In this document: positions 60,464 through 60,582 of the stretch, in pieces
Numbering within the stretch: position 1 is the first letter of the stretch
Layout: every line of letters begins with the position of its first letter
Source of the DNA: Escherichia coli
GTDB taxonomy: Bacteria; Pseudomonadota; Gammaproteobacteria; Enterobacterales; Enterobacteriaceae
DNA: 64,000 nt
NCBI RefSeq assembly: GCF_050920415.1
Contig: NZ_CP169309.1
Reading direction: 5' to 3' (one strand)
The notes under the pieces: generated by a model
Databases searched by the model: none
What the model was told of the DNA's origin: nothing
What the model saw: the letters and a program-made list of their open reading frames with translations, nothing else
Made by a program: the position numbers and the translations under genes

Positions 60464-60475
60464 TTTTTAATCCTG

Positions 60476-60504
60476 TTGACGTATCAAATATTGGATCGTA
60501 GTAT
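60476..60504 (+). promoter_or_regulatory. strong sigma70 promoter (pR-like): -35 ttgacg, 17-bp spacer, -10 tagtat
   Basis: Near-consensus hexamers directed toward the apl/cII-like genes. Confidence 0.6.
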
Positions 60505-60524
60505 CTTGGTGTATCAAATATTGA
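60481..60524. repeat. two direct copies of gtatcaaatattg spaced 30 bp apart (candidate repressor operators)
   Basis: Exact 13-bp repeat at 60481 and 60511 flanking the -10 element. Confidence 0.55.
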
Positions 60525-60582
60525 ATCAAATAAAACAAGATAAAACGACGTAAACCAAACCTTAATCGAGAGATACTGCACT

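What the first reader, a model, noticed from the sequence alone, without database searches (positions are those of the whole stretch)
60464..60582. Lysis-lysogeny switch region: near-consensus promoter flanked by two exact 13-bp direct repeats
Between the divergent cI-like and apl-like genes there is a promoter with -35 ttgacg, 17-bp spacer and -10 tagtat (60476-60504). Two exact copies of gtatcaaatattg lie at 60481 and 60511, 30 bp (about three helical turns) apart, bracketing the -10 element. That geometry fits operators through which the CI-like repressor would shut off the lytic promoter.
Basis: seen in the sequence. Interest (0 to 1): 0.35.

Follow-up and report, generated by a model that had tools for sequence, protein, structure and literature searches.

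The report
Repressor operators of a 186-like prophage
The two repeats are very probably the binding sites through which the repressor of a Klebsiella prophage (a relative of coliphage 186) shuts off its lytic promoter: an expected feature of a well-studied kind of genetic switch, though this particular operator sequence has not been described in the papers I could search.

Summary
GTATCAAATATTG occurs exactly twice, at 60481 and 60511. It is the only exact direct repeat of at least 13 bp at 13-60 bp spacing in the 64 kb, and 2 of 20,000 shuffles reach it. The promoter TTGACG-17-TAGTAT is at the stated place.

The window's right end is a 186/Fels-2-like prophage inserted in ssrA, 99.9% identical to Klebsiella phage Kp4845-2. 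Its gene order is int, cI (two-domain 186-type repressor, 210 aa), apl, cII.

The promoter sits where the annotated 186 pR sits. Each repeat is an imperfect 17-bp palindrome, GTATCAA-N3-TTGRATC. O1 fills the -35/-10 spacer and O2 covers about +1 to +17.

In 84 same-immunity relatives the arms are conserved, the centre varies, and the 30-bp spacing holds in 83. The repeats are inherited with cI, not with apl or cII.

- the predicted convergent cI promoter pL, at the apl start;
- a 10-bp-periodic array that looks like Apl sites;
- a candidate distal site inside cI (60216-60232);
- a palindrome at the position of 186 FR.

Verdict: interpretation supported by homology, with no binding data; a new member of a known kind; low to moderate interest. 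One speculative extra: three-turn spacing may go with this clade's longer CI linker.

The parts
59831..60463 (-). cI: 186-type immunity repressor, 210 aa (N-terminal helix-turn-helix domain, long linker, C-terminal oligomerisation domain)
   Evidence: ORF. Pfam Phage_CI_repr and Phage_CI_C. 32% identity to 186 CI over the full length. PDB 2FJR 3.4e-25 and 2FKD 6.6e-12.
60476..60504 (+). pR, predicted early lytic promoter: -35 TTGACG 60476-60481, 17-bp spacer, -10 TAGTAT 60499-60504; start expected near 60511
   Evidence: Consensus scan. Same position relative to the cI start as the annotated 186 pR. The -10 is invariant and the -35 nearly so in 40 distinct relatives. TTGAC[A/G] is kept in most of the other immunity groups examined, though the 186-type groups have TTTACT/TTTACA/TTGATA.
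60481..60497 (.). O1, proposed CI operator GTATCAA-ATA-TTGGATC, filling the -35/-10 spacer of pR
   Evidence: Exact repeat. Best-but-one score in the window and in the whole phage genome with the motif matrix. Almost invariant in relatives. 186 and most of the other groups examined also carry a palindrome in this spacer.
60511..60527 (.). O2, proposed CI operator GTATCAA-ATA-TTGAATC, 30 bp downstream of O1, covering about +1 to +17 of pR
   Evidence: In relatives the right arm is invariant, the inner TCAA is nearly invariant, and the centre and flanks vary. One relative (L087) has the perfect palindrome GATTCAAATATTGAATC.
60457..60473 (.). Possible weak third site GTATCATTTTTTAATCC, over the cI start codon and ribosome-binding site, 24 bp left of O1. 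Doubtful.
   Evidence: Matrix score 8.8. Its conservation is confounded by translation signals, and 24 bp is out of helical phase.
60530..60556 (+). Apl-type operator array: ATAAAAC (60530), ATAAAAC (60540), GTAAACC (60550), direct repeats with a 10-bp period between pR and pL
   Evidence: Read from the sequence. Same place as the seven Apl sites of 186. Apl sites are 6-bp direct repeats spaced 10-11 bp apart (PMC7498355). The ATAAAAC motif is shared by all Fels-2-like immunity groups.
60573..60601 (-). pL, predicted maintenance promoter for cI, convergent with pR: -35 TTGAAA 60601..60596, 17-bp spacer, -10 CAGTAT 60578..60573; starts about 55 bp from the pR start
   Evidence: Inferred from register with the annotated 186 pL (TTGCGA-17-CATGAT). 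In both phages the -10 lies 5-10 bp upstream of the apl ATG. The sequence is conserved in all groups. The consensus scan did not report it.
60583..60831 (+). apl: Cox/Apl-type excisionase and transcriptional repressor, 82 aa
   Evidence: PHROG 6912 and 575. 29% identity to 186 Apl, E 5e-10.
60216..60232 (.). Candidate distal operator (FL-like), GGGTCAA-TGT-TTGAACC, inside the cI linker codons, 265 bp left of O1
   Evidence: Sixth best matrix score in 64 kb and fifth in the 35.6-kb phage genome. The core TCAA-N3-TTG is kept in most relatives, even where the encoded peptide changes from GSNIDP to GAKIDD. 186 FL lies at the equivalent place, -277. Rough chance of such a hit within +/-400 bp is 0.07.
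60830..60849 (.). Palindrome AAGTTC-N8-GAACTT between apl and cII, at the position of 186 FR, which overlaps pE
   Evidence: Conserved in all eight relatives compared, whatever their pR operator. Resembles 186 FR ATTCACTTTATGTGAAT. Weak match to the O1/O2 matrix, score 6.4.
60864..61373 (+). cII: lysogeny-establishment activator
   Evidence: Pfam Phage_CP76, 1.8e-44. 72% identity to 186 CII.

Best explanation
The two repeats are operators O1 and O2 for the prophage's own 186-type CI repressor.

Each is a 17-bp imperfect palindrome, GTATCAA-N3-TTGRATC, whose half-sites lie about one helical turn apart. That fits one CI dimer binding through its two helix-turn-helix domains. O1 fills the spacer between the -35 and -10 of the early lytic promoter pR. 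O2 covers the pR transcription start. CI bound cooperatively to both would keep RNA polymerase off pR and so silence apl, cII and the downstream early genes.

By analogy with 186, cI itself is transcribed from a weak promoter pL at the apl start, which fires towards pR. Shutting pR would then also remove transcriptional interference on pL, so CI would stimulate its own synthesis. Apl would bind the 10-bp-periodic ATAAAAC array between the two promoters.

Shown here: the sequence anatomy, the gene identities, the correspondence of positions with 186, the conservation pattern, and the linkage to cI. Inferred: binding by CI, cooperativity, the wheel-like oligomer, pL and its interference with pR, and the roles of the distal candidates.
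For: 1. Gene identities and order match 186.
2. In the curated 186 record the CI-binding region runs from the cI start codon across pR, with pL at the apl start and Apl sites in between. The window has the same layout in nearly the same register. The pR -35 lies 13 bp after the cI start, against 15 in 186. The predicted pL -10 lies 5-10 bp before the apl ATG in both.
3. The repeat is far beyond chance. The two sites score 23.5 and 20.5 with the motif matrix, and the next best in the 35.6-kb phage genome scores 14.1.
4. Conservation was measured in 84 loci with CI at least about 90% identical at the protein level, plus SEN8, MLG42 and SopEPhi (40 distinct sequences). The O2 right arm has no variable column out of 7. 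The inner TCAA is almost invariant. The central 3 bp and the 3 bp after O2 are the most variable positions. 83 of 84 loci keep two cores exactly 30 bp apart.
5. Variants keep or improve dyad symmetry, for example GATTCAAATATTGAATC.
6. Module swap: E. coli p13P477T-2 is 96-98% identical in int, apl and cII, but only 60-72% in cI and 68% in the operator stretch, and it lacks the repeats. SEN8, MLG42 and SopEPhi have diverged apl (71-76%) but keep cI and the repeats.
7. 186 and most of the other immunity groups examined also carry a group-specific palindrome in the pR spacer, and the 186 group shows compensatory arm changes.
Against: - There is no binding or expression data for this phage or its immunity group. 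I found none in the searchable literature.
- Linkage of the repeats to cI is expected from physical adjacency alone, so the module-swap argument is consistent but not decisive.
- Dyad symmetry is modest in the window's own copies: 4 of 7 and 5 of 7 arm positions.
- The recognition helix SKSTMANRYLR is identical in the Fels-2 group, whose pR-spacer sequence differs (GTATATAAAAAGTGATC). What sets specificity is therefore unexplained.
- 186 has three operators two turns apart. Here there are only two strong sites, 30 bp (2.9 turns) apart.
- pL has a poor -10 (3 of 6) and the scan did not find it.
Confidence: 0.85

Rival explanations
1. The repeats are binding sites for the Apl/Cox-type excisionase-repressor, which recognises direct repeats and acts between pR and pL.
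For: The two copies are in direct orientation. O2 abuts the 10-bp-periodic ATAAAAC array, and in 186 the Apl region begins right after the pR -10.
Against: Apl sites are 6-bp units spaced 10-11 bp apart, not 17-22-bp units 30 bp apart, and the repeat sequence differs from the ATAAAAC array. A relative with 96% identical apl lacks the repeats, while relatives with 71-76% apl keep them. O1 lies upstream of the -10, outside the stretch that corresponds to the 186 Apl region.
Confidence: 0.05
2. The repeats are host IHF sites that bend the switch DNA. Each copy matches the IHF consensus WATCAANNNNTTR at 8 of 9 specified positions (TATCAA-ATAT-TGG/TGA).
For: The match is read directly from the sequence. 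The IHF consensus comes from my own knowledge. IHF binds at attP of 186.
Against: Relatives replace TATCAA with GTTCAA or ATTCAA, which weakens the IHF match while keeping or raising dyad symmetry. The fully invariant part is TTGAATC, which extends beyond the IHF consensus. The element changes with the immunity group, which a host-factor site would not need to do.
Confidence: 0.04
3. The second copy is a duplicated promoter. The 22-nt unit includes the -35, so there are tandem lytic promoters rather than a second operator.
For: The repeat unit begins with TTGACG in copy 1 and TTGGTG in copy 2.
Against: TTGGTG becomes TCGATG, TCTATG or TCAATT in relatives. The hexamer 17 bp downstream (AATAAA) lacks the key T residues, and the scan reports no promoter there.
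Confidence: 0.02
4. The repeat is a chance or low-complexity feature of AT-rich intergenic DNA and has no function.
For: The region is 31% G+C.
Against: Only 2 of 20,000 shuffles reach it. The pattern of conserved arms and variable centre holds across 40 distinct relatives.
Confidence: 0.01

Closest known systems
Coliphage 186 lysis-lysogeny switch (CI, pR/pL, Apl, CII, FL/FR)
   Same: Same gene order. Same two-domain repressor family. The operator lies in the pR spacer directly next to the cI start. pL sits at the apl start in the same register. There is a periodic Apl-type array between the promoters. A palindrome lies between apl and cII where 186 has FR, and a candidate site lies in the cI linker codons where 186 has FL.
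   Different: CI is only 32% identical and has a linker about 17 residues longer (also noted for Fels-2 and SopEPhi in PMC3448106). The operator sequence is unrelated (TCAA-N3-TTGA core against CAATTG). There are two strong sites 30 bp apart instead of three sites two turns apart (PMC3675496). The phage genome has no second strong pair like the 186 pB site.
186 CI binding at pB (two A-type sites 32 bp apart)
   Same: A pair of like sites about three helical turns apart, bound with high affinity by a 186-type CI (PMC3675496).
   Different: In 186 that spacing occurs at a secondary promoter, distorts the DNA, and is considered disfavoured. Here it is the spacing at the main switch promoter and is fixed in 83 of 84 relatives.
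P2, W-phi and P2 Hy dis C repressor operators
   Same: Two directly repeated sequences flank the -10 of the early promoter (P2 at 22 bp, W-phi at 34 bp). The lytic and lysogenic promoters are convergent. The operators are specific to each immunity class (PMC1904268).
   Different: Those repressors are about 100 aa and belong to a different type. Their half-sites are 8-10 bp and non-palindromic. Here the repressor is a 210-aa two-domain CI and each unit has internal dyad symmetry.
Fels-2, SopEPhi, SEN8, RE2010 and Cartapus prophage switches (Felsduovirus, Elveevirus)
   Same: Same clade, same ssrA insertion site, and the same 209-210-aa long-linker CI. SEN8, MLG42 and SopEPhi carry the same operator pair.
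   Different: Fels-2, RE2010/Cartapus and phi4.1 carry different pR-spacer sequences and are presumably heteroimmune. I found no published operator mapping for any of them.

Membership tests
186-type CI switch | Repressor with a Phage_CI_repr helix-turn-helix N-domain and a Phage_CI_C C-domain | tested here: met
   Pfam 6e-31 and 4.8e-28. PDB 2FJR and 2FKD.
186-type CI switch | Gene order int - cI (leftward), then apl - cII (rightward) | tested here: met
   Same order as NC_001317.
186-type CI switch | Lytic promoter pR next to the cI start, overlapped by dyad-symmetric CI sites | tested here: met
   Met at the sequence level only. Binding itself was not tested.
186-type CI switch | Face-to-face pL promoter at the apl start | tested here: inconclusive
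   TTGAAA-17-CAGTAT is in exact register with the annotated 186 pL. However, its -10 matches only 3 of 6 and the scan does not list it.
186-type CI switch | Three pR operators spaced two helical turns apart | tested here: not met
   There are two strong sites 30 bp apart. A doubtful third lies 24 bp to the left.
186-type CI switch | Distal FL and FR sites about 300 bp on either side | tested here: inconclusive
   Candidates at 60216-60232 (-239) and 60830-60849 (+377), against 186 at -277 and +401. The statistics are weak, about 0.07 for FL.
186-type CI switch | Array of Apl direct repeats with 10-11 bp spacing between pR and pL | tested here: met
   ATAAAAC, ATAAAAC and GTAAACC at 60530, 60540 and 60550, compared. 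Met at the sequence level only.
186-type CI switch | CI assembles into a 14-mer wheel that wraps and loops DNA | not testable with these tools
   Only C-domain homology to 2FKD is shown.
P2-type C repressor operator | Small (about 100 aa) C-type repressor | tested here: not met
   The protein is a 210-aa two-domain CI. C proteins are about 100 aa.
P2-type C repressor operator | Two direct repeats flanking the -10 of the early promoter | tested here: met
   P2 spacing is 22 bp and W-phi 34 bp.
IHF binding site | Match to WATCAANNNNTTR that is kept in relatives | tested here: not met
   The window matches 8 of 9 positions, but relatives break WATCAA while keeping dyad symmetry.

The most novel reading that the evidence does not exclude
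In the long-linker clade of 186-type repressors (209-214 aa: Fels-2, SopEPhi and this Klebsiella group), adjacent CI dimers are placed three helical turns apart on the DNA. In short-linker 186 they are two turns apart. The roughly 17 extra linker residues would let the DNA-binding domains sit further from the centre of the oligomeric wheel.

Supporting observations:
- This group has a significant repeat at 30 bp.
- The RE2010/Cartapus group and a 214-aa group have weak second copies at 31 and 30 bp.
- An independent 194-aa group has CCAATATTGG twice, 21 bp apart.
- 186 itself uses two turns.

The 186 literature calculated that three-turn spacing would need the N-domains about 3.9 nm further out.
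Probability: 0.3. Interest if true: 0.5.

Novelty: new member of a known kind. Interest (0 to 1): 0.25.

Why it matters
The result gives a concrete, testable operator definition (GWWTCAA-N3-TTGRWWC, two copies 30 bp apart) for one immunity class of Fels-2/SopEPhi-like prophages. That class is common: the IMG/VR scan returned 424 stretches encoding a relative of this CI. The definition helps predict superinfection immunity and induction behaviour among Klebsiella, Salmonella, Yersinia and E. coli prophages.

The wider point is modest. This switch is a natural variant of the 186 CI switch with a longer linker and three-turn operator spacing. It could be used to test the open question, raised in the 186 single-molecule work, of how much DNA the wheel occupies and what spacing it prefers.

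Tried and rejected
- **Second operator pair elsewhere in the phage.** I scanned the full 35.6-kb genome of the near-identical phage Kp4845-2 with the motif matrix, looking for something like the 186 pB site. Nothing scored above 14.1, against 20.6 and 23.7 for O1 and O2.
- **Same-motif distal sites in other groups.** I searched the cI genes of the RE2010, phi4.1 and Fels-2 groups with each group's own spacer palindrome. No hit came closer than 4 mismatches, and none of those was near the FL position. A different palindrome, resembling FR, turned up at -264 in Cartapus.
- **Self-similarity in ten immunity groups.** An unbiased offset test was significant only for this group (30 bp) and the 194-aa group (21 bp). 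The 31-bp and 30-bp second copies in RE2010 and the 214-aa group are not significant alone.
- **Second promoter hit.** The scan also listed a minus-strand match, TTGATA-17-AATGAT (60487..60459). I rejected it because it would start transcription inside cI, and its -35 is simply the O1 half-site.
- **Known RNA families.** Rfam gave no match in 56.5-62.5 kb.
- **Literature.** A full-text search for the 13-mer found only an unrelated chromatin paper. The SopEPhi paper (PMC181011) and the 2002 186 paper on action at a distance (PMC2941640) are not held.
- **CII.** CII binding to the repeats is excluded, because a relative with 95% identical cII lacks them.
- **Apl sites at the att end.** A look by eye at 57150-57280 found no clear 10-11-bp periodic ATAAAAC array.

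Full report
**What is in the sequence**

The stretch 60464-60582 is the intergenic region between a leftward 210-aa ORF (59831-60463) and a rightward 82-aa ORF starting at 60583.

The 13-mer GTATCAAATATTG occurs with no mismatch at 60481 and 60511 and nowhere else in the window. Matches with three mismatches occur at the chance rate. The repeat extends to 22 nt, 60476-60497 and 60506-60527, with 19 of 22 identical.

In 20,000 dinucleotide-preserving shuffles of the 119-bp region, only 2 reached an exact 13-bp direct repeat. It is the only exact direct repeat of at least 13 bp at 13-60 bp spacing in all 64 kb.

The promoter-like site TTGACG-17-TAGTAT is at 60476-60504. It matches 9 of 12 consensus positions. 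Sites of this quality are no more frequent here than in shuffled sequence, so the promoter assignment must rest on other evidence.

**What the locus is**

The right end of the window is a prophage of the 186/Fels-2 type (Peduoviridae). The 1.8 kb around the finding is 99.9% identical to Klebsiella phage Kp4845-2. It is 80-83% identical to Salmonella phages SEN8 and SopEPhi and Yersinia phage MLG42.

- The 210-aa protein has both Pfam domains of the 186 repressor.
- It aligns with 186 CI over its full length at 32% identity, with about 17 extra residues in the linker.
- It matches the solved 186 CI structures 2FJR and 2FKD.
- The 82-aa protein is a Cox/Apl-type excisionase-repressor.
- The next gene is 72% identical to 186 CII.
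- An integrase lies to the left.
- At 57105-57150 the 3' end of ssrA marks the attachment site, as for Fels-2 and SopEPhi.

**Comparison with the annotated 186 switch**

The 186 record annotates these features:
- a CI-binding region from the cI start codon across pR;
- Apl sites from the pR -10 to pL;
- pL with its -10 just upstream of the apl ATG and its -35 inside apl;
- FL inside cI;
- FR between apl and cII.

The window matches this layout almost base for base. The pR -35 starts 13 bp after the cI start, against 15 in 186.

On the minus strand, TTGAAA-17-CAGTAT lies at 60601..60573. Its -10 is 5-10 bp before the apl ATG, as in 186. I take this as pL. It is a weak promoter and the consensus scan did not report it, so it remains an inference. 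The two start sites would be about 55 bp apart and convergent (62 bp in 186, from my own knowledge of the 186 literature).

Between them lie ATAAAAC, ATAAAAC and GTAAACC at 60530, 60540 and 60550. This 10-bp-periodic direct repeat is of the kind Apl binds.

**What the repeats are**

Each copy is an imperfect 17-bp palindrome, GTATCAA-ATA-TTGGATC (O1) and GTATCAA-ATA-TTGAATC (O2). O1 fills the -35/-10 spacer. O2 covers about +1 to +17.

I collected 80 IMG/VR loci whose CI is at least 90% identical. With the window and three named phages this made 84 loci and 40 distinct switch sequences.
- The -10 is invariant.
- O1 is almost invariant.
- In O2 the right arm TTGAATC has no variable column and the inner TCAA is nearly invariant.
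- The central 3 bp, the outer 3 bp of the left arm and the 3 bp after O2 vary freely.
- 83 of 84 loci keep two YCAA-N3-TTG cores exactly 30 bp apart.
- Some variants raise the symmetry, for example GATTCAAATATTGAATC in L087.

This is the footprint expected of a dimeric helix-turn-helix operator whose centre is not contacted.

**Whose sites are they?**

E. coli p13P477T-2 is 96-98% identical to the window in int, apl and cII. It is only 60-72% identical in cI and 68% in the operator stretch, and it carries a different spacer sequence. SEN8, MLG42 and SopEPhi have diverged apl (71-76%) but keep cI and the repeats.

So the repeats belong to the cI module, not to apl or cII. Physical linkage alone could produce this pattern, so it is supporting evidence rather than proof.

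Scans with the CI proteins of Cartapus, Fels-2 and 186 yielded further immunity groups. Most of them carry their own palindrome in the pR spacer. The 186 group shows compensatory arm changes: ATCTC/GAGAT, CTTCTC/GGGAAG and TTCCTC/GAGGAA.

**Rivals**

- *Apl.* Its sites are 6-bp units at 10-11 bp spacing, the sequence differs, and the apl gene does not co-vary with the repeats.
- *IHF.* Each copy matches WATCAANNNNTTR at 8 of 9 positions. Relatives break that match while keeping dyad symmetry, and the invariant part lies outside the consensus.
- *A duplicated promoter.* The second '-35' is not conserved and no -10 follows it.
- *Chance.* Excluded by the shuffles and the conservation pattern.

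**Further sites**

With a matrix built from O1 and O2 variants, the sixth best hit in the window is GGGTCAATGTTTGAACC at 60216-60232. It is a near-palindrome in the cI linker codons, 265 bp from O1. Its core survives in most relatives even where the peptide changes.

186 FL lies at the equivalent place. The Cartapus group has a perfect palindrome, GTTCTCATTATGAGAAC, at -264.

Between apl and cII, AAGTTC-N8-GAACTT (60830-60849) is conserved in every group compared and resembles 186 FR.

Both are candidates only. The full phage genome holds no other strong O1/O2-type site.

**Unexplained**

The recognition helix SKSTMANRxLRDSFPA is invariant apart from x across six groups with different spacer palindromes. 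This group and Fels-2 even share x = Y. Specificity must come from the few differing residues around helix 2 and the turn, from the N-terminal arm, or from a second binding mode like the A-type and B-type recognition reported for 186 CI (the paper is cited in PMC3675496).

**Speculative extension**

186 places its pR operators two turns apart. It binds a 32-bp-spaced pair at pB only with DNA distortion. Three-turn spacing was calculated to need the N-domains about 3.9 nm further out.

This clade's CI has a longer linker, and its operators are 30 bp apart. RE2010/Cartapus (31 bp) and a 214-aa group (30 bp) show weak second copies. A 194-aa group shows a clear 21-bp repeat. Most of these are not significant alone, and they amount to a single phylogenetic contrast. 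I give this reading 0.3.

**Verdict**

This is an undescribed but expected operator set of a known switch type. No paper in the searchable library describes it.

Noticed in passing
window 57105-57150, and 57245-57268: The 3' end of ssrA (tmRNA) lies on the minus strand, with no complete tmRNA gene nearby. This is the prophage attachment core: the phage sits in ssrA like Fels-2 and SopEPhi. Two TGCCGCCA repeats next to it match the 186-type integrase arm-site consensus.
   Followed up: partly
window 57283-58803 (minus strand): A 506-aa ORF in AT-rich-looking DNA (G+C not measured) lies between the attachment site and int. It has no Pfam or PADLOC match and only PHROG 14259 (unknown function). 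It sits in the cargo slot of P2-like phages. A fairly good match to the operator matrix (TATCTAATTTTTGAATC, 58785-58801, third best in the window) lies at its 5' end and may be chance.
   Followed up: partly
window 60830-60849; L091 (Cartapus), 264 bp inside cI: The palindrome between apl and cII is conserved across all immunity groups compared and resembles 186 FR. Cartapus has a perfect 17-bp relative of it (GTTCTCATTATGAGAAC) in its cI linker codons, where 186 has FL. This suggests a second, group-independent class of CI site in the whole clade.
   Followed up: partly
cI residues 38-53 (window about 60305-60352, minus strand) and homologues in L006, L007, L091 and the IMG/VR loci: The predicted recognition helix SKSTMANRxLRDSFPA is invariant, except at one residue, in six presumably heteroimmune groups with different pR-spacer palindromes. 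What determines operator specificity is unclear.
   Followed up: partly
L003 (E. coli p13P477T-2, CP019275) against window 59700-61500: There is a clean mosaic swap of the immunity cassette (cI plus about 105 bp of operator DNA) between otherwise 95-98% identical int, apl and cII. In that record int and cI are annotated as frameshifted pseudogenes on a 37-kb circular 'plasmid', which may be a phage-plasmid or an excised prophage.
   Followed up: no
L005/L091 (RE2010, Cartapus) and L007 (phi4.1), just downstream of the pR -10: Long palindromes (GTCTCTT-N13-AAGAGAC and AACTTCTAA-N9-TTAGAAGTT) share a centre, ATG(T)GAGAGTTT, at the 5' end of the predicted pR transcript. They could be operators or an RNA hairpin.
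   Followed up: no
window 62351-63268: A 305-aa ORF lies in the early region of the prophage. From the sequence I guessed it to be a DNA adenine methyltransferase-like protein (DPPY motif). I did not run it against any library.
   Followed up: no
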